From Escherichia phage 241Ecol014PP, in the sequence record OR062943.1: a stretch of DNA of 64,000 bases. One strand, 5' to 3'. The stretch's first letter is position 1. Each line of letters begins with the position of its first letter. Below are positions 601 through 13,780 of this stretch, piece by piece. Made by a program: the position numbers and the translations under genes. Below the pieces are notes generated by a model. It worked only from the letters and a program-made list of their open reading frames with translations, searched no databases and had not been told where the DNA came from.

Positions 601-901
601 AGACCCTCCTGTTAGTTACTCTGCAAGATGGTTGGATGCTGTAATGAAATGCATCATCACTTTCTGCAATAAGTGACTCAACATCCCAATACTTTTCAAA
701 AAGGAACGGATTAGACCCCCAGTGGTGGGTTATTTTCATCAAGGAGTCTGGTATCAGATAGCCACAGATCTTAATTACATCGCCAGGTTGAATTGTGTTT
801 TCATGAAGGTTGCTTGCCTTCTTCAGAATCATACCTTTGTGATTCTCATTTGCATACAACTGGACGATATCTTTATCTTCAACAATAAAAATTTTAAGCA
901 T
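593..901 (-). CDS. hypothetical protein (102 aa)
   Basis: ORF-track ORF, co-directional with the early operon; no recognisable motif. Confidence 0.4.
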   Translation of the reverse strand: MLKIFIVEDKDIVQLYANENHKGMILKKASNLHENTIQPGDVIKICGYLIPDSLMKITHHWGSNPFLFEKYWDVESLIAESDDAFHYSIQPSCRVTNRRVFE

Positions 902-960
902 ACCTAGTTCTCCTAGTTAATAAATAGTTAACTGATAATATCAGATCAGAGACTCATTTG

Positions 961-1254
961 TCAAGACTTTTTAGTCTTTCTTGGAGAGCTTTTTGTTGAT
1001 CTTTTTCTTTTGTGGTAAATTCCAAGTGCAGCATTTTCTTGGGCACACGTTTTAACGGTTTTTAGATCAGAGCTTTCAGCTTTAGGTAGATTAAGCTCCC
1101 ACCAACCCAACCAGTAAAGCTCTGATTCCGACAACTGCTCAGATTCAGACTTCCGATACAAGGCTTGCATACCTCTGATGATATCGTCCAGAGGTGTATC
1201 GAATACAAAAGCTGTCTTATCAAATTTCTCTTTTGCAGGTTTCTTAGCCATCAA
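961..1254 (-). CDS. hypothetical protein (97 aa), basic C-terminus
   Basis: ORF-track ORF in the early operon; Lys/Arg-rich tail (KRKRSTKSSPRKTKKS). Confidence 0.4.
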   Translation of the reverse strand: MMAKKPAKEKFDKTAFVFDTPLDDIIRGMQALYRKSESEQLSESELYWLGWWELNLPKAESSDLKTVKTCAQENAALGIYHKRKRSTKSSPRKTKKS

Positions 1255-1708
1255 GGTAACCCTCTATCCACGAAAAGTCAGTCTTCCATTCTGGAACTTT
1301 ACTAAGCTCACGCCACTCTGCAAAGCAGTCTCGGTAATAGGCCTCTGCCATACCCTTGGTGATCTTATTCACCTTAGCCAACTGATTAACTGCTTGAGCA
1401 TACTTTCCACGGATATTTGCTAACCCAGGATGCACCGATGTGTGACAATCTGGGCACAACGCTATCAGTCCGACAAGCCGGATCACTCCCTCTTCGAAAG
1501 TGTAAAGTTCATGACACTCCACTGGATGTTTGCTGCCTTTACCTCCGCACACCTCACAAGTGTAGTTTGCTTCTCTGTAGCACTTCTTGCGGATCTTATC
1601 CCACTCACTCTTCTTCACAGCGTTCCGGAGGTTATTATACCAAGCTGTTTCTGGGATCAGTTGCACAATAAGCCTGCGTTCAGACTTCATTAAACGTCCG
1701 TCTTCCAC
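1244..1708 (-). CDS. HNH endonuclease-like protein
   Basis: CEVCGG...HPVECHELY...LCPDCH spacing of Cys/His matches the HNH zinc-finger nuclease pattern. Confidence 0.5.
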   Translation of the reverse strand: MEDGRLMKSERRLIVQLIPETAWYNNLRNAVKKSEWDKIRKKCYREANYTCEVCGGKGSKHPVECHELYTFEEGVIRLVGLIALCPDCHTSVHPGLANIRGKYAQAVNQLAKVNKITKGMAEAYYRDCFAEWRELSKVPEWKTDFSWIEGYLDG

Positions 1709-1717
1709 GTATTCTCC

Positions 1718-1924
1718 TCATTCAAAGAAATGGGTGCGAGGACAAGATCCCGCCTCGCCTTGTTTCACAAGCTCGTAGAGCTCACCTTGGCTTGTCTCAT
1801 AAAGGCAAATACGTTTACCATTGTCCCGATATACATCGACAAGATACGCTGTTTCACCTGCAAACACGACACCACAGGCCAGACATGCTGCCATGAACAA
1901 AATTGCCAACAGAAAATCTTTCAT
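1718..1924 (-). CDS. small secreted protein, probable lipoprotein (68 aa)
   Basis: N-terminal hydrophobic signal (LLAILFMAAC) with lipobox-like MAAC/LAC; four further Cys in the short mature part. Confidence 0.45.
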   Translation of the reverse strand: MKDFLLAILFMAACLACGVVFAGETAYLVDVYRDNGKRICLYETSQGELYELVKQGEAGSCPRTHFFE

Positions 1925-1987
1925 GGTTAAACCCTCCTAAACATTTTATGAGGTAAAAATACCACGTCCGTGTGGTTATGTCAATGA

Positions 1988-2749
1988 TCAATCCTCAACA
2001 CAAGGTCTTGGATAGCCTCTGGATAACTTCCACTCAGTTAGTGACATTCCTCCGTAGAGACAGTTTACTTCCCAAGACTTTCTTGCACAAACTGCCTCCC
2101 ACCAGGGGTTTAGCCACTTCCTGTCGTTGAAGCACCTTAAGTTTCTTCCTTTGTTATCTCGTGCCCTCCAACAGGTATCTTTCTTAGACCAATCAATACC
2201 TGGCAGGATATTATTCTTGTGCGGGTTTGGAACTATCTTTAAAGCCTCTTCCGGGTTGGCTATTGACCATTCAACCCTAGACTTAGCCTCTTCGAAAGTG
2301 TCAAAATCTCCCAACCTAACATTTACCCTATTTATCCTTCTACTTGCCCTCCACTTACCCTCTCTTTTCAGCCATACCACACCAGTCACTGTAGAGGTGT
2401 TATTGCTTTGCACATTTTCCAAGGCTCTCTTACAGTAGTTATCCCAAGGCTTCAACATTTGAAGGTTTTCTATCTTGTCTACAGGCACTCCGTTAGTAGA
2501 ATTTTTCTTAGAGATAATATGATCAATATGCCAAGTATCTGTGACACATCCGTAAAACATGTCAAAAATTTCCCTATGTCTGCCACGTTTAACATTTGTC
2601 AGCTTATTGTACACTTGGAAATATCCAGTCTTTTTGTTGTAGTGTCCAGCCCTATTTCCATTCCTACTGCAGCCAGGTTTCCAAAAGATTAGATCACCAT
2701 CCTTGTACCAATAAGGGTAGTGATCATTAAAAAAGAAATGTATCGTCAT
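1988..2749 (-). CDS. HNH homing endonuclease with AP2-type DNA-binding domain
   Basis: WHIDHIISKKN...N HNH core near the N-terminus; GVVWLKREGKWRASRRINRVNVRLGDFDTFEEAKSRVE resembles an AP2 domain. Confidence 0.6.
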   Translation of the reverse strand: MTIHFFFNDHYPYWYKDGDLIFWKPGCSRNGNRAGHYNKKTGYFQVYNKLTNVKRGRHREIFDMFYGCVTDTWHIDHIISKKNSTNGVPVDKIENLQMLKPWDNYCKRALENVQSNNTSTVTGVVWLKREGKWRASRRINRVNVRLGDFDTFEEAKSRVEWSIANPEEALKIVPNPHKNNILPGIDWSKKDTCWRARDNKGRNLRCFNDRKWLNPWWEAVCARKSWEVNCLYGGMSLTEWKLSRGYPRPCVED

Positions 2750-2803
2750 ATCTCAACACACCTCTGGTGTAGCAAGGTAGGAGAGTGGCCTACCTTTTAA
2801 GCA

Positions 2804-3301
2804 TTAATCCAGAACAACACCTCCAAACTCTACAAATTTCTTAAGCAACTTGTCAATGGTTTTTGGATTTTGGTCGTACTGGTTGTAGGGGAACGAAGCC
2901 CAAATATTTGAGGTCTTACGTATAGCAGATTTAATATGACCGTTATCTATATCTTCAAGTGCTTTACGTTCCCTGATCAACTGGATCGCCCACTTATCCT
3001 GACTGTCTGGTCCAAAATCCGGCAACTTAAGCTGTTTTTTGTAGTGTTCCCAGTATTTGACAAGAAATTGATATTTACCGCAGGCTGTAGTTCTTTGCCC
3101 TTTTGAGTTAAACACTTTACCAGGGCGACCGTTTGCAAAAGGGTGCGTAGAAAAATCTGTAAAGATTTCAGGTTTTCCGTCCATCCCGTATGCTACAACA
3201 TCGTATCCTCCACATTTGGTGGCAGGGTGGGTTGTTGTTCCCTCTGCCCAGCCAATAAGATCCAAGAAAGCTTTTCGTTGAACATTTTTATCAAGTTTCA
3301 T
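2804..3301 (-). CDS. endolysin, lambda R-like lytic transglycosylase
   Basis: Near-colinear with lambda R as I recall it: QRKAFLD..W.EGT, GYDV, FTD(F/Y)S.HP, G(K/R)YQ(F/L)L, QLKL.DF.P.SQD, RK(T/C)SNIWAS(F/L)P, F(V/K)E(F/A)GG. Confidence 0.8.
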   Translation of the reverse strand: MKLDKNVQRKAFLDLIGWAEGTTTHPATKCGGYDVVAYGMDGKPEIFTDFSTHPFANGRPGKVFNSKGQRTTACGKYQFLVKYWEHYKKQLKLPDFGPDSQDKWAIQLIRERKALEDIDNGHIKSAIRKTSNIWASFPYNQYDQNPKTIDKLLKKFVEFGGVVLD

Positions 3302-3425
3302 TTTTCATACTCTCCAGTTTACTCATAACTAACCCGATCAACAACACTGCGTGGTGTGGTTATGTAGGTGCCAATTGAAAAACCATCATTCAATTGGCTA
3401 CCGTTACCTACTAGACCACCCTACA

Positions 3426-4709
3426 TCATTCCAGAACCTCCCAAGTATCTGGGTTAACATTTCGGACGCAGATACCGACAGGGAATTGGTAGTTGTTGTC
3501 TTCTGTCCTTGCTTGATATTTGAAGGTGACAAACTTGCCGATCATTTCCTGCATCCTGTCATAGCTACGCTCCTCGTGCGTGCCTTTCATCTTCATTTTA
3601 ACAACAACACCCTCCTTGTCAACACAGATAAGAACACCTTCATCATTCTTATCTTTCTCAACGTCAATAACTTTCACCTCTGCGTCGTTGAACTTTTTCC
3701 ATTTCAATGCTTCAGATGTTCGCTGACCATACTCATACTTACCACAGAAGTTACGCATAATGGTACCTTCATATCCTTCAGACATAAATATACCAACAGA
3801 CTCTTCGCACCGATCAACTGTATATGCAAGCTCTGCATCAACAACCTTAATATGATCAAGCATCAAAGAAGAAATAGCACCATTTGCCTCCATAAGATCC
3901 TTACAGCGCCCAGACTCTGTTTCAGGATCCCACCACACCTTATCGCTAGGGATATCGAAAATATGATACTCTAAGTCGTAGCTGCAGTACCCTCCGTAAC
4001 GCAAATCATCACGAACAGGCTCAACATCAACAGGAATGTCCATCTTATTGAAGTTTTTGTATGTTGCTAAACCTGCCTTAATCGCAGCCTGACGGCGTTT
4101 TTTATCTGCCTCATAGTCTTTATCGATCTCGGCCTGAATCTCTTCCTGTGTGCGCCACCGTTTAGCAAGAGACACTATTTTCTGCAAAGGAAGACCATGA
4201 ATGTATAGTTCCCCATCAAGTTGTTTAATCCCAGTGGTAGAATGGAAAGAACGAAGTTGCTCTAAAAGCTTTCCTTGAATAGGGTAGGACTTATTACCAC
4301 GGGAAATAAATTTAGGCTCACCATTTTGGAAAACAACAAGCAGACGAAGGCCATCTAACTTACGCAAGATCCAGCAAGGTAATTTAAGTGCCTTGCCACG
4401 CTTCAGGTAGTCATGCACCAGCATGGGTAAAAGGTCAACACCCTGCTCGCAATCTTCCATGTTTTCAACATACCCCAGACGGACTTGTTTTTCCCACTTA
4501 CTGATCGCTTCCAGCTCGGCCTGTTGCTCAGCTGTAGTTTCATTGGTACGACCCACGTTCTTAGGTGTGCAGATCGTCTCTTTGTATTGCAGTTTACCAT
4601 CAAGCTTGCCAAACTCTACGATAACCTTATCACCATCCGTGAATACTTTCCACTGTTGGTAGCTGCCATCTTTGTTCAGTGCGTACAGTGTTGTTTTGAT
4701 TTGATGCAT
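3426..4709 (-). CDS. ATP-dependent DNA ligase
   Basis: Nucleotidyltransferase motif I KLDGLR (KxDGxR), motif IV EGYEGTIMR, motif V KWKKF; 427 aa. Confidence 0.65.
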   Translation of the reverse strand: MHQIKTTLYALNKDGSYQQWKVFTDGDKVIVEFGKLDGKLQYKETICTPKNVGRTNETTAEQQAELEAISKWEKQVRLGYVENMEDCEQGVDLLPMLVHDYLKRGKALKLPCWILRKLDGLRLLVVFQNGEPKFISRGNKSYPIQGKLLEQLRSFHSTTGIKQLDGELYIHGLPLQKIVSLAKRWRTQEEIQAEIDKDYEADKKRRQAAIKAGLATYKNFNKMDIPVDVEPVRDDLRYGGYCSYDLEYHIFDIPSDKVWWDPETESGRCKDLMEANGAISSLMLDHIKVVDAELAYTVDRCEESVGIFMSEGYEGTIMRNFCGKYEYGQRTSEALKWKKFNDAEVKVIDVEKDKNDEGVLICVDKEGVVVKMKMKGTHEERSYDRMQEMIGKFVTFKYQARTEDNNYQFPVGICVRNVNPDTWEVLE

Positions 4710-4978
4710 TACTCTACCTCTTCCTTAAAAATTTTAAACATCTCTTCTTTACTCATTACCAACCAGTCCCCCATAAAATCAACAAGCCAATCACCCTGGT
4801 ACAAGACTAGGTTACCAAACGGCTCTACAAGCTCACACATACGACGAAGATCTCTGGTCCGAACAGGTGACGATGTAAACACACCTGTATCAATCCACCG
4901 TTGCAGATCAGATACTGATGAAGAGCTTCCGTCAAACTGGTGTGCTTCTACAGGTTTAGCAAGATTAAATAACGGCAT
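4709..4978 (-). CDS. hypothetical protein (89 aa)
   Basis: ORF-track ORF overlapping the ligase start by 1 nt. Confidence 0.35.
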   Translation of the reverse strand: MPLFNLAKPVEAHQFDGSSSSVSDLQRWIDTGVFTSSPVRTRDLRRMCELVEPFGNLVLYQGDWLVDFMGDWLVMSKEEMFKIFKEEVE

Positions 4979-5303
4979 TGCAGTCCTCCTTATCTAATAG
5001 GTCTTTTATCGGGTAAACAAGCAGGTGTGGATCGTAATAATTTATAGTTTTATTCTGCCACACTATGAACTTAATTACAACTAAATTTACCACATCTTTA
5101 TCTCCATGTAGTCCAACACACAGATTTGTCCATATTTTGTGGTTGAATACTTTGCTGTCGATGTAGATTTTAGTGTCAAACTTATCCTCTATCCTGCCTA
5201 TGAGTTTAACCAACTCTTTCATCTGATCCCCAAACACAGCATCGTTTTCAAGATCTCTAGAGTGCTTGTACATAACTATCTGCCTCACTTGCATACTTTC
5301 CAC
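4965..5303 (-). CDS. hypothetical protein (112 aa)
   Basis: ORF-track ORF in the operon; no recognisable motif. Confidence 0.35.
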   Translation of the reverse strand: MESMQVRQIVMYKHSRDLENDAVFGDQMKELVKLIGRIEDKFDTKIYIDSKVFNHKIWTNLCVGLHGDKDVVNLVVIKFIVWQNKTINYYDPHLLVYPIKDLLDKEDCNAVI

Positions 5304-5336
5304 AACAAGTAAAGCCGGGTAATCCCGGCTATGTTG

Positions 5337-6050
5337 TTAAATATACTCTGTTACATCCTTGAAGCTAGAAGGCTTCATGATCTTACCTTTACTGTCAAGA
5401 AATATGATAACTTTATTACCGTTGTAGAATTCTTCCTTAGCAACAAAACCTTCATATCTACCATCAAAGCGTCGCTCAAGATCTTTAATCTCCAACTCGA
5501 TGAGTTGTTCAGCAGGCATATCTGCACTGGCACCGTGTGAATACCGTAGATGGTTGACCCGTGCAAACTTGCTGTCATTAGATTTGAGAACCTTACGCAT
5601 CATCCCGCACACATCGCCGCGAAGCTGGAACAGCAAAGCTGTTGACAACTCTGCTAAGCGGTAAGCGGATGCTCTTTGCTTAGAGGTGTTTTTCGCAGCG
5701 ATCAGTGTATCATAGAACTCACCGATCTTGAACTTAAGACCTCGCGGATTATCAAACAGGTTTGACCACTTTTCGTGATTATCATTAACAAGATAAGCGG
5801 CATAACTTGTGACAACGTGAAGATCGCAGGCCTCTTTTAGCAGGTGATCTCCACCATCACCTTTCTCCAGCTCTTCCAAAACTTCATTGAACTCTTCCTC
5901 AATGAAGCTAAGCTGTAATTCGAATGGTGTGTATGATTTTTTCACTTTAGCTGCCACACGGTTCCAGTTTTCCACCCAGTTGGCAGACCAAAAGTAGTTT
6001 TCAGGCTGAGACAGTTTTTCCAGGTTGTCGATCAGTTTAGTATTCAGCAT
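5337..6050 (-). CDS. MazG-like nucleotide pyrophosphohydrolase domain protein (237 aa)
   Basis: FIEEEFNEVLEELEKGDGGDHLLKEACDLHVV fits the MazG-type E-x-x-E...E-x-x-D helix pair; C-terminal half unassigned. Confidence 0.4.
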   Translation of the reverse strand: MLNTKLIDNLEKLSQPENYFWSANWVENWNRVAAKVKKSYTPFELQLSFIEEEFNEVLEELEKGDGGDHLLKEACDLHVVTSYAAYLVNDNHEKWSNLFDNPRGLKFKIGEFYDTLIAAKNTSKQRASAYRLAELSTALLFQLRGDVCGMMRKVLKSNDSKFARVNHLRYSHGASADMPAEQLIELEIKDLERRFDGRYEGFVAKEEFYNGNKVIIFLDSKGKIMKPSSFKDVTEYI

Positions 6051-6063
6051 TAAAGGTCTCCTT

Positions 6064-6825
6064 TTAAAGTTCCATAAAGTTTTCTACGGTCTCAATGAAT
6101 GTTTTATCAGAGAAAGCGTCAACCGCCCCGTTAAACCAAACTGGGATGCCGCGATCCTCATACTGGTAAATATCACTACGTGAAATTCCATTCTCCTCTA
6201 GATGCTGTGAGTCGTATTTGTTAACGATCAGCAGTTTGGTTCCCTTATTGCAGGCAGGGAATAGTTCCCAGTTAAAATTGATAACTGTGTTGGAACAACC
6301 TACAAGGATAACCATATCATTGCTCGTGAGAGAAGTCAACAGGTCATACATGTCTGTATACTTCGGAGCTACTTCTCCGAAGAACACCACATTAGGCTTA
6401 ACCCAGATATACTTTCCTGGATCTACCTCAGAGTATCCAATGTCCTTAATGACGTTACTTCCTTCATCGTCCTCATAGACTATTTCTGGCAAATACCCGT
6501 GGACATGTAGAATATCTTCATGTTTTACACCAGCACGCTCCAGCAAATCATCTACATTGGTGGTAAGATTGATCACACGGCCAGGCCAGCGGGAATACCA
6601 CTCAGCGATCCGGAGATGCGCAAGGTTAGGATCAACACTGCCCAGAGCTACACGGCGTGCATTGTAAAAGTCATGCACCTTATAGTAGTTCTTGGCAAAG
6701 GTGTGGATGTTGCACACCTCATCGATGCTGAAATTCTCCCACATTGCAGTGCTACCAGATCGGAAAGTGGGAATACCAGATTCAGCGCTCAAACCAGCAC
6801 CGGAGATAATAATCAGTCGTCGCAT
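6064..6825 (-). CDS. SIR2 (sirtuin) family protein lacking the zinc-ribbon
   Basis: GAGLSAESGIPTFRSG, TTNVDDL, catalytic LHVHG, VVFFGE; no CxxC...CxxC module. Confidence 0.75.
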   Translation of the reverse strand: MRRLIIISGAGLSAESGIPTFRSGSTAMWENFSIDEVCNIHTFAKNYYKVHDFYNARRVALGSVDPNLAHLRIAEWYSRWPGRVINLTTNVDDLLERAGVKHEDILHVHGYLPEIVYEDDEGSNVIKDIGYSEVDPGKYIWVKPNVVFFGEVAPKYTDMYDLLTSLTSNDMVILVGCSNTVINFNWELFPACNKGTKLLIVNKYDSQHLEENGISRSDIYQYEDRGIPVWFNGAVDAFSDKTFIETVENFMEL

Positions 6826-6833
6826 AAGTGTCC

Positions 6834-7184
6834 TCAGTAGATGTTTTGTTTAATCTCTATTCCAAACTTTTTAAACGAGTCAGCTGCAAGCATGAATTTA
6901 CGAGCCGCTGATGGATTAGAAGTGTGCACGAAAATCTTCACGTTGTCAACTACAGGAGGCTTACCAAATACAAATTTTTCCTCTAACATGCAGAAACAGT
7001 CGTACCCTTCTAAGACTTCTCCTAAATCGCTGTCAAAATGCCACTCAGAAACGCGCCTGTAGAGCTTTCTATTATCGTTAATAAAATCCATGAACTCAGA
7101 AGAGTTCTTCAGCCAAAGAGCATTTTGGATTCCGTAATTTGACGGATCTCTCAAGTCATCCAGCCACACAATCAACTTCTTCAT
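6834..7184 (-). CDS. hypothetical protein (116 aa), translationally coupled to RNA ligase
   Basis: Start ATG 7184-7182 overlaps the RNA ligase stop TGA 7183-7181 (ATGA); GAGGA upstream. The track's longer start (7214) lies inside the ligase gene. Confidence 0.4.
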   Translation of the reverse strand: MKKLIVWLDDLRDPSNYGIQNALWLKNSSEFMDFINDNRKLYRRVSEWHFDSDLGEVLEGYDCFCMLEEKFVFGKPPVVDNVKIFVHTSNPSAARKFMLAADSFKKFGIEIKQNIY

Positions 7185-8116
7185 TGCATATAGTCCTCGT
7201 TGTGAAAATAGCAATCAAGTATCTCACGGCGTTCCTGCTCCAGGAGGCAGTTCCACACATCTTCTGTGTAATTGCTACGAATGAAGTTTACCATGCCGTA
7301 AAACTCTTCGTCAATACGTTTAAAGATATCATCATCCCAAATCTTCCAAGCTTTACCCCTCATTACGGCCTTCCGTGCCAAATAGTATGGAGACTTGATC
7401 TTCAGCTGCAGGTCATAAGGGTAGTAAGGCTTACGGATCATATACCCTTCGCCCCTTGTTTCTGCGGCTAATTCTTTTGCATAGCTGAACGGGATTTCAC
7501 GCACAGTGAGAGGACGTTTTGCACCAAGGTATTTGGCAATCCCATCTAAAGCTGCTTCTGGTAGCATTATTCCAGAATCATTATATCTGCAACCTATCAA
7601 ATATGCGCCATGGTCTTCTTGAACAATATGCGGATCTGAAGGGTGACAAATTTCAAACATGAATGTCATGTTTTCATTGCCCATAACCTTCTTGATAAGA
7701 TCTAAATTACCACATTGCTCTTGGATGGTTTCCTTTGCAAGGTTACAATATGGAGAATCAAGAGACCCGGTTGTTGAGAACAATAGGTCACCTTTATGAG
7801 ATGATACCACACCAAGGAATCCGTTCTTTTTCTCTACCGCAGTCACAAGCTTATTGTCAGGCAGGTTGGTGGAGTTTTCTCCCAAGTTAAACACTTTTGT
7901 GAAGGGCCATGCCACAACATTTCCTTCATTACCTACAACAATGCCTCGGCACTCCAGTAAACGAGGGGACAAATACCATAAATTGTTGTAAAATACTTTT
8001 CTAGCATATTTATAGATCTTTAACCCCAGATCTGGGTAATACCTACTGGTTACAAGACCTTTGTCAACTAGGTCGTCTGCATTAAAATACTTCATCATAC
8101 GTTCCTCATTTGTCAT
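7181..8116 (-). CDS. RNA ligase (Rnl1/Trl1-like nucleotidyltransferase)
   Basis: Motif I VEKKNGF (KxNG), motif IV EGYMIRK, motif V LKIKS; divergent from the kinase/phosphoesterase genes. Confidence 0.55.
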   Translation of the reverse strand: MTNEERMMKYFNADDLVDKGLVTSRYYPDLGLKIYKYARKVFYNNLWYLSPRLLECRGIVVGNEGNVVAWPFTKVFNLGENSTNLPDNKLVTAVEKKNGFLGVVSSHKGDLLFSTTGSLDSPYCNLAKETIQEQCGNLDLIKKVMGNENMTFMFEICHPSDPHIVQEDHGAYLIGCRYNDSGIMLPEAALDGIAKYLGAKRPLTVREIPFSYAKELAAETRGEGYMIRKPYYPYDLQLKIKSPYYLARKAVMRGKAWKIWDDDIFKRIDEEFYGMVNFIRSNYTEDVWNCLLEQERREILDCYFHNEDYMQ

Positions 8117-8159
8117 TTTGTCAGTCTATCCTGCCACACAAATAACCTAGTGTCAACAC

Positions 8160-8188
8160 TTGAAATTAACAAAACAGTTAGGTATACT
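8160..8188 (+). promoter_or_regulatory. sigma70-like promoter TTGAAA-17-TATACT
   Basis: In the 100-bp divergent region between RNA ligase (minus) and kinase (plus). Confidence 0.45.
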
Positions 8189-8216
8189 ATCGTTGAAATT
8201 AAAACGGAGGGTCACT

Positions 8217-8627
8217 ATGTCTAAAATGCTATATATCGTGCGTGGTCTACCAGGGTCTGGCAAATCAACACTGGCAAATGCGCTATCTTTAGAGGGTCTG
8301 TATCCACATTTTGAGAACGACATGTTCTGGTATGACGATGACGGCAATTACAACTGGGATGCAAGTAAAGTAACACTCGCAGCGAAATGGTGCAAAGATA
8401 ACGTAGAAGATATGATGCGTATGGGATACGACCGTATCGTGGTAAGTAATACGTTTACAAAAGAAAAACATGTGCAGGAATATGTTGACATGGCAATCAG
8501 TCATGGGTATAGTTATACCGTGATCGTGGTTGAAAACCGCCACGGTAATAAAAGCATTCATGATGTTCCAGACAAGGTTGTGGATCGTATGGAACGCCAG
8601 CTTAAAAACTGCATTAAACTTAAATGA
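8217..8627 (+). CDS. P-loop polynucleotide kinase-like protein
   Basis: Walker A GLPGSGKST near the N-terminus; ATG 8217 follows GGAGGG. The track's 8160 start would sit on the promoter. Confidence 0.55.
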   Translation: MSKMLYIVRGLPGSGKSTLANALSLEGLYPHFENDMFWYDDDGNYNWDASKVTLAAKWCKDNVEDMMRMGYDRIVVSNTFTKEKHVQEYVDMAISHGYSYTVIVVENRHGNKSIHDVPDKVVDRMERQLKNCIKLK

Positions 8628-8634
8628 GGAATGT

Positions 8635-9189
8635 ATGAAATACTTTGTAACAAGCGACACACACTTTCTCCACCAGCGGGTCATGGAGTTTGATTCATGT
8701 CAAAAACACAGATCTCAGTATGATCACAATCTTGACAGTATGAATGCGGGAATCATCGCCGAATGGAACTCTGTTGTGTCACCTGCAGACACTGTGTTCC
8801 ACTTGGGAGATATTGCGTGCACTAATGATAAGAATATCAACAACTTACTTCCAGATATTCTAAATATGTTGAACGGACATATTATTCTTGTTCGTGGCAA
8901 CCATGACACAAGGACGACTGTCAGAATTATGAAAGAGTTCGGTCATGAGGTTGTAGATTATTACGAGCTTCGCCACAACAAGAATTTGATCTGTATGAGC
9001 CATTACCAGTTTGCAAAGTGGAACAGAAAGCCTCACGGATCAGTCCAACTGTTCGGTCATGCTCACGGAACCACACAACAGTTGTTTGGCAGACAGTTTG
9101 ATGTCGGTTGGGATGTGTGGGGGAGACTCTTACCATTAGAAGAGGCATACCGTATTGCAATGAGTTTTGCTATTGACAGCGGGGAGTAA
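8635..9189 (+). CDS. calcineurin-like metallophosphoesterase
   Basis: SDTHF (D-x-H), GDIACTN (GD), GNHD (GNH[DE]), GHAHG; start placed at ATG 8635 because the D-x-H motif is N-terminal. Confidence 0.65.
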   Translation: MKYFVTSDTHFLHQRVMEFDSCQKHRSQYDHNLDSMNAGIIAEWNSVVSPADTVFHLGDIACTNDKNINNLLPDILNMLNGHIILVRGNHDTRTTVRIMKEFGHEVVDYYELRHNKNLICMSHYQFAKWNRKPHGSVQLFGHAHGTTQQLFGRQFDVGWDVWGRLLPLEEAYRIAMSFAIDSGE

Positions 9190-9236
9190 TCCCTGCTATT
9201 TTAAAGAAAATTGCCACACAAGGAGAATCAGGAGAT

Positions 9237-9587
9237 ATGAAAGATGGGGATAAGCTGCTATATCTTAAAGTCCCCCTTGAAATACTATCTATGTCAAAAG
9301 TTTTGAATGACACAACTGGGGAGGTTGTTGTTCTTGACTTGTATGACAAGATCGTATACTGCTACCTGCACAACTGGTATAAGCTTGGAGGAAGTTCACG
9401 CTTCACACCCAGCACAAGGAAAATTGCAGCAGATGTTGGAATAAAGAAAACAAAAGCAGCAGCGTGCGTTAAAACTTTAGAATGTGCGGGAGTGGTTGAA
9501 ATATCCACACAAGGGAGAGGTAAAAGATGCACATTTTCCAAAGTTTTGCCACCAGAAGAAGTTATTCGAATGTCAACAACTGGTTAG
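9237..9587 (+). CDS. small DNA-binding protein, helix-turn-helix-like (116 aa)
   Basis: RKIAADVGIKKTKAAACVKTLECAGVVEI looks like an HTH/wHTH segment; GGAGA RBS; iteron array lies 75 bp downstream. Confidence 0.35.
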   Translation: MKDGDKLLYLKVPLEILSMSKVLNDTTGEVVVLDLYDKIVYCYLHNWYKLGGSSRFTPSTRKIAADVGIKKTKAAACVKTLECAGVVEISTQGRGKRCTFSKVLPPEEVIRMSTTG

Positions 9588-9662
9588 ACCAGTAAAAACT
9601 TAAATATCTGTACTATAAGGATTCGTATGTTTTATGTTCGCTCTGGAACAGAGGTTAGTAAC

Positions 9663-9743
9663 TGTCCGTGATACGGACACTACTGTCCGTCACGCGGACA
9701 CATCTGTCCGTAATACGGACACTAACTGTCCGTGATACGGACA
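9663..9743. repeat. four tandem 17-bp palindromes TGTCCGT-N3-ACGGACA at 21-22 bp phasing
   Basis: Units at 9663-9679, 9684-9700 (one mismatch), 9705-9721, 9727-9743; perfect 7-bp arms. Confidence 0.85.
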
Positions 9744-9890
9744 CATAAAGAATATAACTAAAATAACTAAATAATAAAAAACAAAAGATCTAGTACTTAT
9801 GGTACTAAGTACATATACTTAACTTATGTAGAATATATTAGATCCTAAGTACTATGTTTTAAATTTATTACTTACTATGGGTAGTGTCGG
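9744..9890. other. AT-rich tract with GTACTTA/TAAGTAC inverted repeats
   Basis: agtacttatggtactaagtac and cctaagtactatg immediately after the iterons. Confidence 0.5.
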
Positions 9891-10235
9891 CCCTTCATTG
9901 GCACTCGCCTACGAGGGGCGAGATGCCGGGCCTCCCTGGTGCACACAATAACAGAAGTGCATACATGCAGGTCTGTTAACATGTGTGGGAGCGAAGCGAT
10001 AGCGCAGGCCAAAGTCCGAGCACTGATGTGGACCACCGACGAAAGCTTGCCAGCGCCGGAAGGAGTCGGTTGAGAGTCTCCCGCGCGAGCTTGGATGAAG
10101 TTTATGTGTGGAAACGGACAAGAAGGCCCCTAAATCGCTCCACAGCTATATAAACTATATCAGGTAAGGCAATCGCACCAGTTTGATAGAAAAGCTCGTT
10201 ACAAAGCGATACAGTGAGTTTTTCTATAACTTGAA
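9890..10235. other. GC-rich non-coding island
   Basis: Sharp GC rise versus flanks; only ORF is an implausible 70-aa antisense frame (9909-10121). Confidence 0.35.
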
Positions 10236-10247
10236 GAGGAGGCAGCT

Positions 10248-10826
10248 ATGAGTCCACGCAAAGATGACCGTGAAAAGATTGCAAAACGTTATCAGAATGA
10301 AGAACAGATGGAGAAAACTTTCAAGTGGAAGCCAGGTTTCCAGCGTAATCATTCTAACGCTCGTGATCGTAAGCATCCGGATAAGTGGTTAACACCGCCA
10401 AATGATGGCATTCAGGTTGGTGATGAGAAGGAGCTGTCACCAGGAAAAGATGGCAACTACATTCGCACTAAGGAAGCAGGTCCAAAGGATGACAGCTATC
10501 TTGTAGATAAGGTTCTTGACGGTATTGATGCAGGTGTTGACACTATGCGAAACCTTTTTCTTGGTTGGTATCGTACAGGGTTTTTCGACATCAAGGCTAT
10601 TCGTCGTGTTTGTGATATTAAAAAGTCTGCCTATGATGATGACTCTCTACATCGCACTCTGAGACAATACTCAGAGAGATACGGTCATCCAGTTATCACT
10701 CTTGACGATATTAACGAAGTGATGTATCATGCAGAGGTTGTTGCAGGTAGATTCGGTGATGCATATCTCGGTATTCTTTCTGCAAAAGATGAGGTAATGT
10801 TAAATAAAATTTACTATGAACGCTGA
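10248..10826 (+). CDS. hypothetical protein (192 aa), charged N-terminal region
   Basis: Strong RBS GAAGAGGAGG before the ATG; no recognisable motif. Confidence 0.5.
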   Translation: MSPRKDDREKIAKRYQNEEQMEKTFKWKPGFQRNHSNARDRKHPDKWLTPPNDGIQVGDEKELSPGKDGNYIRTKEAGPKDDSYLVDKVLDGIDAGVDTMRNLFLGWYRTGFFDIKAIRRVCDIKKSAYDDDSLHRTLRQYSERYGHPVITLDDINEVMYHAEVVAGRFGDAYLGILSAKDEVMLNKIYYER

Positions 10827-10836
10827 GGAGCGCTTA

Positions 10837-11025
10837 ATGAACAATCCGGTAGCAAAGAACTGTAATAAGTTCAACAAGTCTGCAATTCACACTGACAGGA
10901 AAAAGAGCTGGTCTCCTGACATTGACGAGGAGCTTGAGAGTTACTTTGAAGACCTGGTCACTAATGCAGATGAGGTTGCGATTAAAGAATACGCAGACAG
11001 GAAGGATAAGGCCGGAATCTGTTGA
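10837..11025 (+). CDS. hypothetical small protein (62 aa)
   Basis: In-frame ATG at 10837 after GAGGAG; the track's 10816 start overlaps the upstream stop. Confidence 0.3.
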   Translation: MNNPVAKNCNKFNKSAIHTDRKKSWSPDIDEELESYFEDLVTNADEVAIKEYADRKDKAGIC

Positions 11026-11051
11026 CAAAAATAGTGTTACCTGATAAGATC
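11023..11051 (+). promoter_or_regulatory. sigma70-like promoter TTGACA-17-TAAGAT
   Basis: -35 at 11023-11028, 17-bp spacer, TGa-extended -10 at 11046-11051. Confidence 0.5.
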
Positions 11052-11101
11052 TGCAATATGATGTGATACAATTTTAACTTACGAGGTCTACAGGTAATGC
11101 T

Positions 11102-11344
11102 ATGTTTAAGGTTAAGCTCGTTTTTCGTTCCATGAATGAGGATTATTTAGAAGATGAAGGTGAATTTCGTGCACTGGATGATGCAATAGATTTTGCCAAC
11201 GACTTAGCTTGTATGAATACAGGTTATGGGCTATGCTGTTGGGATGGTGGTGTTCAGATCGGTGATAGCAAGATCTTCTACTTCTACCCTGAGCCTGATA
11301 ACAAACAAATTAAGTATGTTTTATTTATTTGTGCTTTACAATGA
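11102..11344 (+). CDS. hypothetical protein (80 aa)
   Basis: ORF-track ORF downstream of the 11023 promoter. Confidence 0.35.
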   Translation: MFKVKLVFRSMNEDYLEDEGEFRALDDAIDFANDLACMNTGYGLCCWDGGVQIGDSKIFYFYPEPDNKQIKYVLFICALQ

Positions 11345-11399
11345 GGTTGTTTTCGTGTATCATGATGAATATCCAATTTAAAGATGAATTTGATGGCTT

Positions 11400-11633
11400 T
11401 ATCTCCGGATGCTTTGAAACAGGGTTCGGAGAAGACTGAGTTCCCCTTAGAGGGCTTGATAGTGCACCACACTTAAAATGGTAGGGGCAGCCAGCACATG
11501 ACGATGTGACCCCAGCCAACCTGTAACAAGGTCGAGCCGAAGCGCGGGTAATAGGCCTCTGGTAACCCACTTGTTGGGTCTTGCTGGTCCAGGACGCTGG
11601 ACAAGTCGCAGGGAATACCACCCTGCGGCGAAC
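11400..11633. other. GC-rich non-coding island with several hairpins
   Basis: Hairpins cacat-gacg-atgtg, gtccag-gacg-ctggac, cgcaggg-aatacca-ccctgcg; overlapping ORFs look spurious. Confidence 0.35.
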
Positions 11634-11662
11634 TTGACAATCAGTATTTGCTATGATAAAAT
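11634..11662 (+). promoter_or_regulatory. sigma70-like promoter TTGACA-17-TAAAAT
   Basis: Consensus -35 11634-11639, 17-bp spacer, TGa-extended -10 11657-11662. Confidence 0.55.
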
Positions 11663-11690
11663 CCACCTATCACGTGATAATGGAGGAAAC

Positions 11691-12029
11691 ATGGCGGATA
11701 CAACTAAAAAGCGTCGCCGTAGAGGCAGACCTCTGAAAGAGGAGTCCAACGCCATTCAGCTAGAGAAGAACATCCTTGATATGAAGGAATCTTTTATAGC
11801 GATGGTTCCAGAAGCTCACAAAGTTTTAAGAGAGCTGATGTTGGACCCGAAAACCAAACAAAATATTCGTCAAAGCATTGCAGAGTATGTTCTTGATAAG
11901 GCAGACCGAATGCAGGAAGAATATGATGAGATGTTTGGTGAAGAGGAAGAGGTGGTAGTAGAAGAGGCTGAAAAACCAGCACCTTTTATGCCATTTACTA
12001 CAGAAATACAGCCTGTTAGCAATAGCTAA
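11691..12029 (+). CDS. hypothetical DNA-binding-like protein (113 aa): basic N-terminus, acidic C-terminus
   Basis: MADTTKKRRRRGRPLKE then helical and acidic regions; could be a small terminase subunit or regulator, unresolved. Confidence 0.4.
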   Translation: MADTTKKRRRRGRPLKEESNAIQLEKNILDMKESFIAMVPEAHKVLRELMLDPKTKQNIRQSIAEYVLDKADRMQEEYDEMFGEEEEVVVEEAEKPAPFMPFTTEIQPVSNS

Positions 12030-12038
12030 AATATTTTC

Positions 12039-12067
12039 TTGACAAACTTTGCTTAACAGTGTAATAT
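12039..12067 (+). promoter_or_regulatory. sigma70-like promoter TTGACA-17-TAATAT ahead of the tRNA cluster
   Basis: -35 12039-12044, 17-bp spacer, -10 12062-12067. Confidence 0.5.
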
Positions 12068-12126
12068 TGTAAACATGGTCTCCCACCTTTTCTGGCGGCT
12101 AAGGTGTAAAAGAAAGCCACCCAGTG

Positions 12127-12200
12127 CCCTGTTAGCTTAGTGGATAAAGCAGCGGCCTTCTAAGCCGTTGACACTGGTTCGAGTCCAGTACGGGGTGCCA
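12127..12200 (+). tRNA. tRNA-Arg (anticodon TCT)
   Basis: Hand-folded cloverleaf: acceptor GCCCTGT/ACGGGGT, D stem GCTT/AAGC, anticodon stem GCGGC/GCCGT, loop CTTCTAA, T arm ACTGG-TTCGAGT-CCAGT, encoded CCA. Confidence 0.7.
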
Positions 12201-12330
12201 AGTTCTTTTTAATGTAGCTTACTTTAGCAGAGTAAATCTTCGGCAAGTGGCGGTAACCACTTTACCGATACCTCATAGTTAGTGGTGAGAACACTAGCTA
12301 TTTTAAAAAGAATTTAAATATTAGTATTTA

Positions 12331-12418
12331 GGTGAGTTAATTCCGTAGGGGTAGCGGGGCAGACTGTAAATCTGTTATCATTGCGATTCGGGTGGTTCGA
12401 CTCCATCACTCACCACCA
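12331..12418 (+). tRNA. tRNA-Tyr (anticodon GTA), long variable arm
   Basis: Acceptor GGTGAGT/ACTCACC, anticodon loop CTGTAAA, T arm GGTGG-TTCGACT-CCATC, CCA encoded. Confidence 0.7.
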
Positions 12419-12532
12419 AATTTATATTTTTAAATGCATAAATCATACAGATAATGGCATTGATATTTATCGTCGTTTATACTAGTCACTAACTGCTCGA
12501 AAATCAGTGTCATTATCAGTATTGTTTATAAA

Positions 12533-12623
12533 AGAGGGTAGGGAGCAATGGTGCTCAAGCGGTCTTGAAAACCGTCCCGTTGAGGATGACTCGATGATGG
12601 TTCGATTCCATTATCCTCTGCCA
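12533..12623 (+). tRNA. tRNA-Ser (anticodon TGA), long variable arm
   Basis: Acceptor AGAGGGT/ATCCTCT, anticodon stem GCGGT/ACCGT, loop CTTGAAA, T arm GATGG-TTCGATT-CCATT, CCA encoded. Confidence 0.7.
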
Positions 12624-12721
12624 TATTGTTGACCTTGTAATTAAGCGAAAGCCGGAAGCAGAACCGGATTATCAAATGTTACAGTCGTCATCGCCGACTA
12701 GCAACATGGTCAACATACTGA

Positions 12722-12818
12722 GCTAGGTAAGCCCTTTGGCAAGGGCGAGGATTTTTAATCCTGAAAATAGACGAGGTAGTCGTTGAATACATAGGTGGTT
12801 CGATTCCACCGCCTAGCA
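12722..12818 (+). tRNA. tRNA-like gene, non-canonical (about 97 nt); anticodon uncertain, possibly TTT
   Basis: Good acceptor (GCTAGGT/GCCTAGC), D arm and T arm (GGTGG-TTCGATT-CCACC), but anticodon arm has a 4-bp stem, the variable region is about 30 nt and no CCA is encoded. Confidence 0.35.
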
Positions 12819-12825
12819 CCTTTTT

Positions 12826-12901: not shown

Positions 12902-12902
12902 T

Positions 12903-12977: not shown

Positions 12978-12988
12978 AATAATAAATA

Positions 12989-13411: not shown

Positions 13412-13457
13412 CTTTCAGTTATACTTTAAACATATACAAACAAAAGGAACCTTTAAA

Positions 13458-13727: not shown

Positions 13728-13780
13728 GTATTAGTCTCCTTTTAGTTAGTTTCGATCTATTTAGGTTACTCAATTTTAAC

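What the first reader, a model, noticed from the sequence alone, without database searches (positions are those of the whole stretch)
5337..8116. Zinc-less sirtuin (SIR2) inside an early RNA/DNA-repair operon
ORF 6064-6825 has the sirtuin NAD-binding and catalytic motifs (GAGLSAESGIPTFR, TTNVDD, HG, VVFFGE) but no CxxC...CxxC zinc ribbon, so it resembles the SIR2 NADase domains of bacterial defence systems more than CobB-type deacetylases. It is packed with 8-33 nt gaps or ATGA overlaps between an RNA ligase, a 116-aa unknown, a MazG-like protein, two small unknowns and a DNA ligase. Either an NAD-dependent step coupled to nucleic-acid repair or an NAD-targeting takeover/anti-defence factor would be unusual for a phage; neither role can be decided from sequence.
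Basis: partly seen in the sequence, partly recalled or inferred. Interest (0 to 1): 0.75.

Follow-up and report, generated by a model that had tools for sequence, protein, structure and literature searches.

The report
Phage sirtuin in RNA-repair gene cluster
An rV5-like E. coli phage carries a CobB/SIRT5-type NAD-dependent sirtuin that has lost its zinc-binding cysteines and sits inside an RNA-break repair gene cluster; this arrangement, in this phage group, was described and given a predicted role in 2022, but nobody has tested what the enzyme does.

Summary
ORF 6064-6825 (-) is a full-length sirtuin (Pfam SIR2, E 1e-26) with every catalytic residue and none of the four zinc cysteines. It is tightly packed between an Rnl1-type RNA ligase, a 116-aa protein that is a cREC domain, a MazG-like protein and an ATP-dependent DNA ligase. 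A kinase and a metallophosphoesterase are transcribed divergently.

The gene is not rare: homologues occur in 1,012 of 50,697 phage records, including T5. Iyer et al. 2022 (PMC9503650) described this neighbourhood in phage rV5 and predicted a KptA/Tpt1-like removal of RNA 2'-phosphate. I found no experimental test.

I rate that mechanism about 0.4 and an ordinary lysine deacylase about 0.35. Already known; modest interest.

The parts
6064..6825 (-). Class-III-type (CobB/SIRT5-like) sirtuin, 253 aa. Residues 113-141 are a degenerate compact zinc ribbon without ligands. Catalytic set: F21 R22 N90 D92 H109. Anion pocket: Y54/R57.
6834..7184 (-). cREC (cyclic-phosphate-processing receiver-like) domain protein, 116 aa. 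Its start overlaps the RNA ligase stop codon (ATGA).
   Evidence: PF20274 E 1.4e-13. Invariant D9 D10 D51 D53 H87 N90 across phage homologues, including a jumbo-phage copy. Elsewhere it lies next to RtcB or inside a tRNA cluster.
7181..8116 (-). Rnl1-type (T4 RnlA family) RNA ligase, 311 aa, with the K-x-N-G, EGxxxRK and KxK nucleotidyltransferase motifs.
   Evidence: PF09511 E 2e-14 and phrog_562 E 6e-65. Invariant K96 N98 G99 E223 G224 K239 K241. No PDB sequence hit, even with a profile.
5337..6050 (-). MazG-like / dimeric-dUTPase-like all-alpha nucleotide pyrophosphohydrolase, 237 aa, with a C-terminal beta-hairpin extension.
   Evidence: phrog_671 E 2e-21. PF01503 is precomputed on homologues. 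EExxE...ExxD motif. AF2 pLDDT 78; the only meaningful PDB fold hits are phage dimeric dUTPases 5mil and 5myi.
8217..8627 (+). P-loop kinase (AAA_33 / polynucleotide-kinase-like), 136 aa, transcribed divergently from the ligase.
   Evidence: PF13671 E 1.7e-10; phrog_2071 and phrog_505 'polynucleotide kinase'. It lies next to SIR2 in Mydovirus-like phages.
8635..9189 (+). Calcineurin-like metallophosphoesterase, 184 aa (DxH, GD, GNHD and GHxH motifs).
   Evidence: PF12850 and PF00149. phrog_547 E 1.5e-52.
5313..5330 (.). GC-rich 7-bp hairpin (AGCCGGG-ATTA-CCCGGCT) in the 33-nt gap after the MazG-like gene. It is a possible boundary of the four-gene unit Rnl1-cREC-SIR2-MazG.
   Evidence: Terminator-like site found on both strands. 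The T-tract is weak. Function was not tested.
4965..5303 (-). Small ORF of unknown function (phrog_7684).
   Evidence: Homologues co-occur with the module in Mydovirus-like phages.
4709..4978 (-). Small ORF of unknown function (phrog_14585), 89 aa.
3426..4709 (-). ATP-dependent DNA ligase, 427 aa.
   Evidence: PF01068, PF14743 and phrog_114 E 6e-83. It lies immediately downstream of SIR2 in Mydovirus-like phages.

Best explanation
The protein is a catalytically competent, CobB/SIRT5-type sirtuin. It binds NAD+, expels nicotinamide and transfers ADP-ribose onto an oxygen nucleophile, and His109 then activates the ribose 2'-OH for a second step.

In this phage it belongs to an RNA-break repair module. 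The module comprises a 5'-kinase, a metallophosphoesterase, a cREC cyclic-phosphate esterase and an Rnl1-type ligase. [quoted passage not shown]

The most likely specific role is the one predicted by Iyer et al. 2022. The sirtuin would act like Tpt1/KptA:
1. A 2'-phosphate left on the RNA attacks C1'' of NAD+.
2. The ADP-ribose 2''-OH then attacks that phosphate.
3. Clean RNA is released together with ADP-ribose 1'',2''-cyclic phosphate.
4. cREC, the phosphoesterase and possibly the MazG-like pyrophosphatase degrade that by-product.

Shown here: the fold, the residues, the gene neighbourhoods and the family distribution. Inferred: the RNA substrate and every chemical step.
For: 1. All sirtuin catalytic and NAD-binding residues are invariant across the family. 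The fold model is confident, pLDDT 89.7.

2. All neighbours look enzymatically intact and together make a healing-and-sealing set: Rnl1 ligase, cREC, kinase and metallophosphoesterase.

3. The sirtuin keeps RNA-end or ADP-ribose-processing neighbours in three different phage lineages:
- Rnl1-cREC-kinase-SIR2 in Vequintavirinae and ~145-kb Klebsiella/Cronobacter phages, at only 44-60% identity.
- HAD_SAK_2, 'Swiss-army-knife RNA repair' phosphatase (E 5e-20), two genes downstream in T5-like SP15.
- 2H-SIR2-x-Nudix-cREC beside NAMPT and NMNAT in jumbo phage PHA46.

4. cREC alone is linked to RNA repair elsewhere. It lies next to an RtcB-type ligase in one phage and inside a tRNA cluster in another.

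5. The related Rnl1-kinase module of Pseudomonas phage PaP1 is flanked by PRPP synthetase, NAMPT and a weak Macro domain. This again ties NAD/ADP-ribose chemistry to this ligase module.

6. The same prediction was published for 'Escherichia phage V5' (PMC9503650).

7. From established mechanisms, not tested here: the sirtuin reaction and the Tpt1 reaction are formally parallel. In both, an oxygen attacks C1', and the ribose 2'-OH then forms a 1',2'-cyclic species.
Against: 1. Nothing intrinsic to the protein points to RNA. The residues lining the acyl-lysine tunnel and the Y54/R57 pocket are the same as in cellular CobB-like relatives. Only about 10 positions distinguish the phage clade.

2. 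The sister group is a chromosomal gene held in a conserved metabolic context in Marinobacterium.

3. The family is acidic, with median pI 5.1 and net charge about -12, like its cellular relatives. This is unhelpful for binding RNA.

4. The kinase + metallophosphoesterase + Rnl1 triad exists without sirtuin or cREC in PaP1-like phages. By analogy with T4 Pnkp/Rnl1 and Clostridium Pnkp (established knowledge), it would leave no 2'-phosphate.

5. Most sirtuin-bearing phage records probably lack both cREC and Rnl1. This is inferred from the totals and organism breakdowns (1,012 vs 358 and 829 records; Salmonella 289 vs 14 vs 14). The overlap of the record lists was not computed.

6. E. coli already encodes KptA (established knowledge).

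7. Gene adjacency among related large phages may reflect shared ancestry rather than selection.

8. The MazG-like protein looks most like a dimeric dUTPase and may be unrelated to the pathway.
Confidence: 0.4

Rival explanations
1. It is what it looks like: an ordinary NAD+-dependent protein lysine deacylase of the CobB/SIRT5 type (deacetylase or desuccinylase). The phage would use it to strip acyl groups from host or phage proteins. Targets could be translation, metabolic or nucleic-acid enzymes, possibly including the active-site lysines of its own ligases. Its position among repair genes would be historical or only loosely functional.
For: - Best sequence and fold matches are CobB, SIRT5 and Sir2-Af1.
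- The class-III Tyr-x-x-Arg acyl-carboxylate pocket (Y54/R57 = SIRT5 Y102/R105) is invariant, as are F149, V181 and H109.
- It is 36-52% identical to cellular CobB-like sirtuins, with almost no clade-specific changes in the core.
- The sister clade is a vertically inherited chromosomal gene in a metabolic context.
- It is acidic like cellular deacylases.
- Most phages carrying it probably lack cREC and Rnl1; this rests on totals and organism breakdowns only.
Against: - It does not explain the recurring neighbours: cyclic-phosphate or phosphate esterases (cREC, 2H, HAD_SAK_2) and ADP-ribose-type pyrophosphatases (Nudix) in three unrelated phage lineages.
- It scores far below the curated CobB equivalog cut-offs (121 bits against 243-320). 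The cellular relatives also fall short (153-180 bits).
- No member of this sub-family has been assayed, as far as the library shows.
Confidence: 0.35
2. It is a counter-defence or takeover enzyme acting on NAD+ or on NAD-derived small molecules. It might consume or remodel ADP-ribose-based immune signals together with cREC, 2H and Nudix/MazG, or act as a regulated NADase. It would not act on RNA or protein.
For: - In jumbo phage PHA46 the sirtuin lies beside an Acb1-like 2H phosphodiesterase (PF23474, E 1.7e-16), a Nudix, cREC and NAD-salvage genes NAMPT and NMNAT.
- cREC was originally proposed to process cyclic ADP-ribose-type molecules (PMC7824862).
- T5-like phages that carry the sirtuin also carry NAD-rebuilding systems (PMC13464706).
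Against: - No similarity to any PADLOC defence SIR2 model.
- It retains the full acyl-lysine-type pocket and the catalytic His that pure NADases do not need.
- Depleting NAD+ would harm a phage that otherwise invests in NAD+ supply.
- No sensor or partner domain is present.
Confidence: 0.1
3. It is a macromolecular ADP-ribosyltransferase. It would tag a host protein or a nucleic-acid end (for example a 5'-phosphate) with ADP-ribose, as SirTM sirtuins do for proteins and as Tpt1 can do for 5'-phosphates.
For: - Sirtuins can ADP-ribosylate (reviewed in PMC9503650).
- The nucleic-acid repair context is compatible with this reading.
Against: - There is no adjacent Macro-domain partner, which defines SirTM systems. 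PMC9503650 also notes its absence.
- It is closer to deacylase sirtuins than to SirTM.
- The catalytic His and the class-III pocket are retained.
Confidence: 0.08

Closest known systems
Phage 'RNA-repair sirtuin' neighbourhood type 2 of Iyer, Burroughs, Anantharaman & Aravind 2022 (Viruses 14:1977, PMC9503650), prototyped by Escherichia phage V5 (rV5) and Proteus phage Mydo
   Same: The window is 96-97% identical in DNA to rV5-like Vequintavirus genomes. It contains every listed component: sirtuin, T4-like RNA ligase, cREC, nucleotide kinase, MazG-superfamily pyrophosphatase and calcineurin-like phosphoesterase.
   Different: There is no difference in gene content. That paper does not mention the lost zinc ligands, the retained class-III Tyr/Arg pocket or the zinc-less chromosomal sister group. 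Those three points are added here, and they weaken the case for a changed substrate.
E. coli CobB / human SIRT5 / Archaeoglobus Sir2-Af1 (class III sirtuin lysine deacylases)
   Same: - Same NAD-binding and catalytic residues.
- Same Tyr-x-x-Arg pocket that binds the succinyl or malonyl carboxylate.
   Different: - All four zinc cysteines are missing and the ribbon is shortened to about 29 residues.
- Gln of the TQN motif is Thr (T89).
- There is an extra C-terminal helical segment of about 50 residues.
- It scores below the CobB equivalog cut-offs.
- It is encoded in a phage RNA-repair cluster.
Tpt1 / KptA RNA 2'-phosphotransferase (ART-fold; yeast and bacterial tRNA splicing/repair)
   Same: This is the proposed functional analogue. 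It is NAD+-dependent, releases nicotinamide, is coupled to an RNA ligase pathway and makes a by-product that needs cyclic-phosphate processing. The parallel rests on inference and the literature.
   Different: The fold and family are unrelated (Rossmann sirtuin against ADP-ribosyltransferase). No activity on RNA has been shown for any sirtuin of this clade. The protein is acidic.
Defence-associated SIR2 NADases (ThsA, DSR1/2, SIR2-HerA/Nezha, KomC, Avs5 SIR2)
   Same: They share the SIR2 superfamily Rossmann core and also lack a canonical zinc ribbon.
   Different: - No PADLOC or SIR2_2 match.
- There is no sensor or partner domain.
- The gene is phage-encoded.
- The acyl-lysine-type pocket and class-III signature are retained.
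T4 Pnkp + Rnl1 and bacterial Pnkp/Hen1 RNA healing-and-sealing systems
   Same: The kinase, phosphoesterase and Rnl1-type ligase set in the window parallels these systems. The Clostridium Pnkp phosphatase is also a calcineurin-type metallophosphoesterase (PMC3675462, listed).
   Different: Those systems need no NAD+ and have no sirtuin or cREC. Here the activities sit on separate small proteins.

Membership tests
Sirtuin / SIR2 superfamily (Pfam PF02146) | Significant match to the SIR2 profile over the Rossmann core | tested here: met
   PF02146 E 1.3e-26, 94 bits against a cut-off of 24, residues 9-181.
Sirtuin / SIR2 superfamily (Pfam PF02146) | NAD-binding GAGxS...GIPxFR loop, the N/D of the TQNxD motif, and the catalytic His of the HG motif | tested here: met
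   G9-A10-G11, S13, F21, R22, N90, D92 and H109 are invariant or nearly so. H109 aligns to SIRT5 H158.
Sirtuin / SIR2 superfamily (Pfam PF02146) | Four-cysteine zinc ribbon in the small domain | tested here: not met
   The ligand columns align to Y117, S123 and a deletion. No family member has the four Cys. The segment still folds as a small beta module in the model.
Class III sirtuins (SIRT5/CobB type) | Tyr-x-x-Arg acidic-acyl pocket (SIRT5 Y102/R105) | tested here: met
   Y54 and R57 are invariant in phage and cellular relatives.
CobB equivalog (NCBIfam NF040867 / PRK00481 models) | Score at or above the curated cut-off | tested here: not met
   The best model, NF001753, scores 121 bits against a cut-off of 243. 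NF040867 scores 102 against 320. Cellular relatives also fall short at 153-180 bits.
CobB equivalog (NCBIfam NF040867 / PRK00481 models) | NAD-dependent lysine deacylase activity | not testable with these tools
   This needs an enzyme assay. No assay of this clade was found in the literature searched.
Defence-associated SIR2 NADases (ThsA, DSR, SIR2-HerA, pAgo-SIR2, KomC, Avs5) | Match to defence SIR2 / SIR2_2 profiles | tested here: not met
   No PADLOC hit at E <= 0.01. The only Pfam hit is PF02146.
Defence-associated SIR2 NADases (ThsA, DSR, SIR2-HerA, pAgo-SIR2, KomC, Avs5) | Closest structural neighbours are defence SIR2 domains | tested here: not met
   [not shown]
Defence-associated SIR2 NADases (ThsA, DSR, SIR2-HerA, pAgo-SIR2, KomC, Avs5) | Fused or adjacent sensor/partner (SLOG, HerA, pAgo, STAND) | tested here: not met
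   It is a single-domain 253-aa protein. Its neighbours are a ligase, cREC and a MazG-like protein.
SirTM (macro-linked ADP-ribosylating sirtuins) | Operonic or fused Macro domain partner | tested here: not met
   [not shown]
Tpt1/KptA RNA 2'-phosphotransferase | ART-fold PTS_2-RNA domain | tested here: not met
   The fold is a Rossmann sirtuin. The claim is functional analogy only.
Tpt1/KptA RNA 2'-phosphotransferase | NAD-dependent removal of RNA 2'-phosphate yielding ADP-ribose 1'',2''-cyclic phosphate | not testable with these tools
   This needs biochemistry or tpt1-delta complementation.
Phage RNA-repair sirtuin neighbourhood, type 2 (Iyer et al. 2022) | Sirtuin adjacent to a T4-like RNA ligase and a cREC protein | tested here: met
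   Rnl1 7181-8116, cREC 6834-7184 and SIR2 6064-6825 lie on one strand with an overlap and an 8-nt gap.
Phage RNA-repair sirtuin neighbourhood, type 2 (Iyer et al. 2022) | Nucleotide kinase, MazG-superfamily pyrophosphatase and calcineurin-like phosphoesterase in the same neighbourhood | tested here: met
   Kinase 8217-8627, phosphoesterase 8635-9189 and MazG-like 5337-6050.
Phage RNA-repair sirtuin neighbourhood, type 2 (Iyer et al. 2022) | Neighbourhood conserved in divergent phages | tested here: met
   The same genes surround SIR2 homologues of 44-60% identity in about 145-kb phage contigs. It is absent in T5-like and some phi92-like phages.

The most novel reading that the evidence does not exclude
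The sirtuin does not act on protein lysines. It would be the first sirtuin to use a nucleic-acid phosphate as acceptor, as a non-homologous replacement of Tpt1/KptA. It would remove RNA 2'-phosphates with NAD+ during phage-directed tRNA/RNA repair, with cREC as the first characterised receiver-fold cyclic phosphodiesterase clearing ADP-ribose 1'',2''-cyclic phosphate. A more speculative variant, also not excluded, is that it de-acylates RNA-linked acyl groups, such as toxin-acetylated aminoacyl-tRNA.
Probability: 0.35. Interest if true: 0.75.

Novelty: already known. Interest (0 to 1): 0.35.

Why it matters
If the predicted activity is real, it would add a new reaction to the sirtuin superfamily: ADP-ribosyl transfer to an RNA phosphate. 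It would also reveal a second, non-homologous solution to the 2'-phosphate problem of RNA ligation. It would give cREC its first function. It would explain why about 2% of sequenced phages, including T5, rV5-like and jumbo phages, carry a sirtuin, as a countermeasure to host RNases that cut tRNA.

If the enzyme is instead a plain deacylase, it would be a widespread example of phages rewriting the host acyl-proteome.

Either outcome can be tested with standard assays. The idea and the gene cluster are already in the literature, so this window offers a good experimental target, not a new discovery.

Tried and rejected

2. 'Loss of zinc signals a new function.' Rejected as an argument:
- Cellular relatives of the same length carry a compact CxxC..CxxC ribbon.
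- The zinc-less state is shared with a chromosomal Marinobacterium/Haliea sister clade in a conserved metabolic context.

3. Looking for phage-specific substrate-pocket changes that would indicate an RNA substrate. Only about 10 clade-specific positions were found, and none lies in the lysine tunnel or the Tyr/Arg pocket. A charge analysis gave no basic surface signal.

4. Typing the RNA ligase as T4-Rnl1-like or Trl1-like (2'-phosphate-dependent) through solved structures. There were no PDB sequence hits, even with a 9-sequence profile.

5. Looking for an ADP-ribose-binding domain in the MazG-like protein. The AF2 model (pLDDT 78) matched only phage dimeric dUTPases. The C-terminal extension stayed unassigned.

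6. Looking for analogous displacement by KptA next to the homologous ligase in Pseudomonas phage PaP1. No KptA was found, only PRPP synthetase, NAMPT and a sub-threshold Macro hit.

7. A sigma-70 promoter for the minus-strand unit. No match passed the scan; there is only a perfect -35 hexamer upstream of the ligase, seen by reading the sequence. 'Early' expression therefore remains unverified.

8. Rfam scan of window 1-16000. Only tRNAs were found.

9. Literature searches for any assay of a phage sirtuin. None was found.


Full report
**What the window is.** The 2.8-kb region is 96-97% identical to about 120 rV5-like Escherichia phages (Vequintavirus). In those records the genes are already annotated as RNA ligase, Sir2-like protein and hypothetical proteins (RefSeq annotation of APECc02). 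Several 'Campylobacter phage' records are 92-98% identical and look mislabelled.

**Checking the observation.** The minus strand carries, in this order:
- an Rnl1-type RNA ligase (7181-8116; PF09511 E 2e-14)
- a 116-aa protein (6834-7184) that is a cREC_REC domain (PF20274 E 1.4e-13), not an unknown
- the sirtuin (6064-6825; PF02146 E 1.3e-26; phrog_2162 E 6e-110)
- a MazG-like protein (5337-6050; phrog_671)
- two small unknowns
- an ATP-dependent DNA ligase (3426-4709)

A P-loop polynucleotide-kinase-like protein (8217-8627) and a calcineurin-like metallophosphoesterase (8635-9189) are transcribed divergently from the ligase. A GC-rich hairpin at 5313-5330 follows the MazG-like gene and may close a four-gene unit.

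The sirtuin motifs are real. Aligned to SIRT5, F21/R22, N90/D92 and H109 correspond to F70/R71, N141/D143 and catalytic H158. All are invariant in 53 homologues. The four zinc-ligand columns align to Y117, S123 and a deletion. No family member among 121 has the four cysteines.

**What kind of sirtuin it is.**

1. Profiles. Only PF02146 matches, with no SIR2_2 hit and no PADLOC defence model. The best NCBIfam models are CobB-type deacylases, though below their cut-offs.

2. Structure. The AlphaFold model is confident (pLDDT 89.7).
   - Foldseek's top 50 PDB hits are all classical sirtuins, led by E. coli CobB, Sir2-Af1 and SIRT5.

3. The class-III signature. The Tyr-x-x-Arg pocket that binds the succinyl or malonyl carboxylate in SIRT5 and CobB is present (Y54/R57) and invariant.

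**The missing zinc ribbon.** A scan of bacterial genomes found chromosomal relatives at 36-52% identity. Those of Campylobacterota, Verrucomicrobia and some alphaproteobacteria carry a compact CxxC..CxxC ribbon in a segment of about the same length. They share the 'IGY' motif with the phage protein. Residues 113-141 of the phage protein are therefore a degenerate compact ribbon, not a novel insert.

Relatives from Marinobacterium, Haliea and Pseudochelatococcus lack the zinc ligands too. The Marinobacterium gene sits at a conserved chromosomal position among amino-acid metabolism genes in many species. It is a vertically inherited cellular gene. In a simple neighbour-joining tree without bootstrap, the phage sequences form one clade, and its sister is this zinc-less Marinobacterium/Haliea group. 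Loss of zinc is therefore not phage-specific and says nothing about function.

A position-by-position comparison found only about 10 positions that separate the phage clade from cellular relatives. Examples are Q to T in the TQN motif, an insertion in the cofactor loop, W76 and N179. None lies in the acyl-lysine tunnel or the Tyr/Arg pocket. Both groups are acidic, with median pI about 5.1 and net charge about -12.

**How common it is.** tblastn finds homologues in 1,012 of 50,697 phage records. These include:
- Vequintavirinae
- T5-like Demerecviridae, including the 121,750-bp T5 genome at 58% identity
- ~145-kb Klebsiella and Cronobacter phages
- phi92-like phages
- Vibrio and Salmonella jumbo phages

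A protein search returned 852 clusters. The gene is not unusual for a phage.

**Context in other phages.** I checked the neighbourhoods independently.
- In Mydovirus-like and related ~145-kb phages, the sirtuin (44-60% identical) keeps Rnl1, cREC, the kinase, the DNA ligase and the MazG-like gene around it, in a different order.
- In T5-like SP15 there is no ligase or cREC nearby. A 'Swiss-army-knife RNA-repair' HAD phosphatase (PF18143, E 5e-20) lies two genes downstream.
- In jumbo phage PHA46 the order is Acb1-like 2H phosphoesterase, SIR2, a hypothetical protein, Nudix, cREC, with NAMPT and an NMNAT-like gene a few kb upstream.
- In a phi92-like phage, nothing informative lies within 6 kb of the sirtuin. 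A metallophosphoesterase lies about 4.5 kb upstream.
- cREC alone sits next to an RtcB-type ligase in a Cronobacter phage and inside the tRNA cluster of a Proteus phage. Its receiver-type acidic pocket (D9, D10, D51, D53) is invariant.
- In Pseudomonas phage PaP1, a 40%-identical ligase sits with the kinase, a metallophosphoesterase, PRPP synthetase, NAMPT and a sub-threshold Macro domain, but no sirtuin.

Genome-level counts are 1,012 records for the sirtuin, 358 for cREC and 829 for the ligase. The organism breakdowns differ: Salmonella has 289, 14 and 14 records respectively, and Pseudomonas has 177 ligase records. The association is therefore recurrent but not obligatory. I did not compute the overlap of the record lists.

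[quoted passage not shown] They propose that the sirtuin acts like KptA, removing 2'-phosphates from RNA cut by metal-independent nucleases. The associated esterases would either open the cyclic phosphate or process the resulting ADP-ribose cyclic phosphate. cREC was defined in their 2021 jumbo-phage paper.

They do not discuss the zinc ribbon, the class-III pocket or the cellular sister group. I found no experimental study of any phage sirtuin of this clade.

**Mechanism and its rivals.** With high confidence the protein is an active NAD+-consuming sirtuin. The acceptor is not settled.

*For the Tpt1-like model.* Cyclic-phosphate and phosphate esterases and ADP-ribose-type pyrophosphatases recur next to the sirtuin in three lineages. 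NAD-salvage genes recur beside these modules. From established mechanisms, sirtuin and Tpt1 chemistry are formally parallel: an oxygen attacks C1', and the ribose 2'-OH then forms a 1',2'-cyclic species.

*Against the Tpt1-like model.*
- The protein is intrinsically indistinguishable from cellular CobB-like enzymes.
- It is acidic.
- The kinase, metallophosphoesterase and Rnl1 triad should already give clean ends, as in T4 and Clostridium Pnkp. That triad exists without the sirtuin in PaP1.
- Most sirtuin-bearing phages probably lack cREC and Rnl1.
- E. coli has its own KptA (established knowledge).
- The MazG-like protein resembles a dimeric dUTPase and may simply be a nucleotide-pool enzyme.

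My estimates are:

| Explanation | Confidence |
|---|---|
| Tpt1-like RNA 2'-phosphate removal | about 0.40 |
| Ordinary lysine deacylase | about 0.35 |
| NAD/ADP-ribose-signal counter-defence | about 0.10 |
| Macromolecular ADP-ribosyltransferase | about 0.08 |

**Verdict.** The feature is real and correctly located. The 'defence-like' reading is refuted. The 'NAD-dependent step in nucleic-acid repair' reading matches an existing, untested prediction made for this phage genus. Novelty is 'already known'. Interest is modest (0.35). It rests on the fact that a potentially new sirtuin reaction remains experimentally open and is easy to test.

Noticed in passing
window 9659-9744 (plus 9750-10120): There are four tandem 21-22-bp repeats, each containing the palindrome TGTCCGTnATACGGACA. 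A 150-bp AT-rich stretch (25% GC) follows, then a 58% GC stretch. All of this lies in a ~650-bp ORF-free gap right after a 116-aa ORF (9237-9587) that is annotated 'replication initiation protein' in a relative. It looks like an iteron-type replication origin. There is no Rfam hit.
   Followed up: partly
window 5313-5330: A perfect 7-bp GC-rich hairpin lies in the 33-nt gap between the MazG-like gene and the next ORF. It was flagged as terminator-like on both strands, with a weak T-tract. It may split the 'operon' into Rnl1-cREC-SIR2-MazG and unknown-unknown-DNA ligase.
   Followed up: no
window 12126-12977: This is a tRNA cluster about 4 kb from the repair module, holding Arg-UCU, Ser-UGA, Thr-UGU and Met-CAU. 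ARAGORN also calls an odd 99-nt 'tRNA-???' at 12722-12820. Rfam calls a tRNA at 12331-12415 that ARAGORN misses; it could be a pseudo or atypical tRNA.
   Followed up: no
L066-L084 (Marinobacterium, Haliea), L088/L089/L093/L096 (Pseudochelatococcus/Chelatococcus): These are chromosomal CobB-like sirtuins that also lack all four zinc cysteines. In Marinobacterium the gene sits at a conserved locus between an SNF-family symporter and GGACT/LigB/MetE genes. This clade is sister to the whole phage sirtuin clade in a neighbour-joining tree.
   Followed up: partly
L146 (Salmonella jumbo phage PHA46) 1-7001: The gene order is NMNAT-like cytidyltransferase, NAMPT, four hypothetical genes, Acb1-like 2H phosphoesterase (PF23474, anti-CBASS family), SIR2, a hypothetical protein, Nudt16-like Nudix, cREC. 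NAD salvage genes and a possible cyclic-nucleotide-degrading enzyme therefore sit beside the sirtuin. This can also be read as a counter-defence island.
   Followed up: partly
L149 (Pseudomonas phage PaP1) 4471-10835: The module is metallophosphoesterase, Rnl1-type ligase (40% identical to the window's), AAA_33 kinase, PRPP synthetase, NAMPT and a sub-threshold Macro domain annotated 'phosphatase'. It is the same healing-and-sealing triad without sirtuin or cREC, but next to NAD-salvage and ADP-ribose-phosphate-type genes.
   Followed up: partly
phage records MG065644-MG065676 ('Campylobacter phage C11, C14, C15, D1, A147...'): These records, labelled as Campylobacter phages, are 92-98% identical to this E. 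coli rV5-like region. Several are fragments with no annotation. They are probably mislabelled or contaminant assemblies.
   Followed up: no
L064 (T5-like phage SP15) 7651-8481: Two adjacent paralogous genes, each with a duplicated DUF7415 domain (E about 1e-32), follow the HAD_SAK_2 phosphatase downstream of the T5-type sirtuin. Their function is unknown.
   Followed up: no
window 2804-3301: A lysozyme/endolysin-like gene (phrog_90 / phrog_17029) sits on the same strand directly downstream of the DNA ligase, inside the replication/repair block. The same ligase-endolysin adjacency is seen in PaP1.
   Followed up: no
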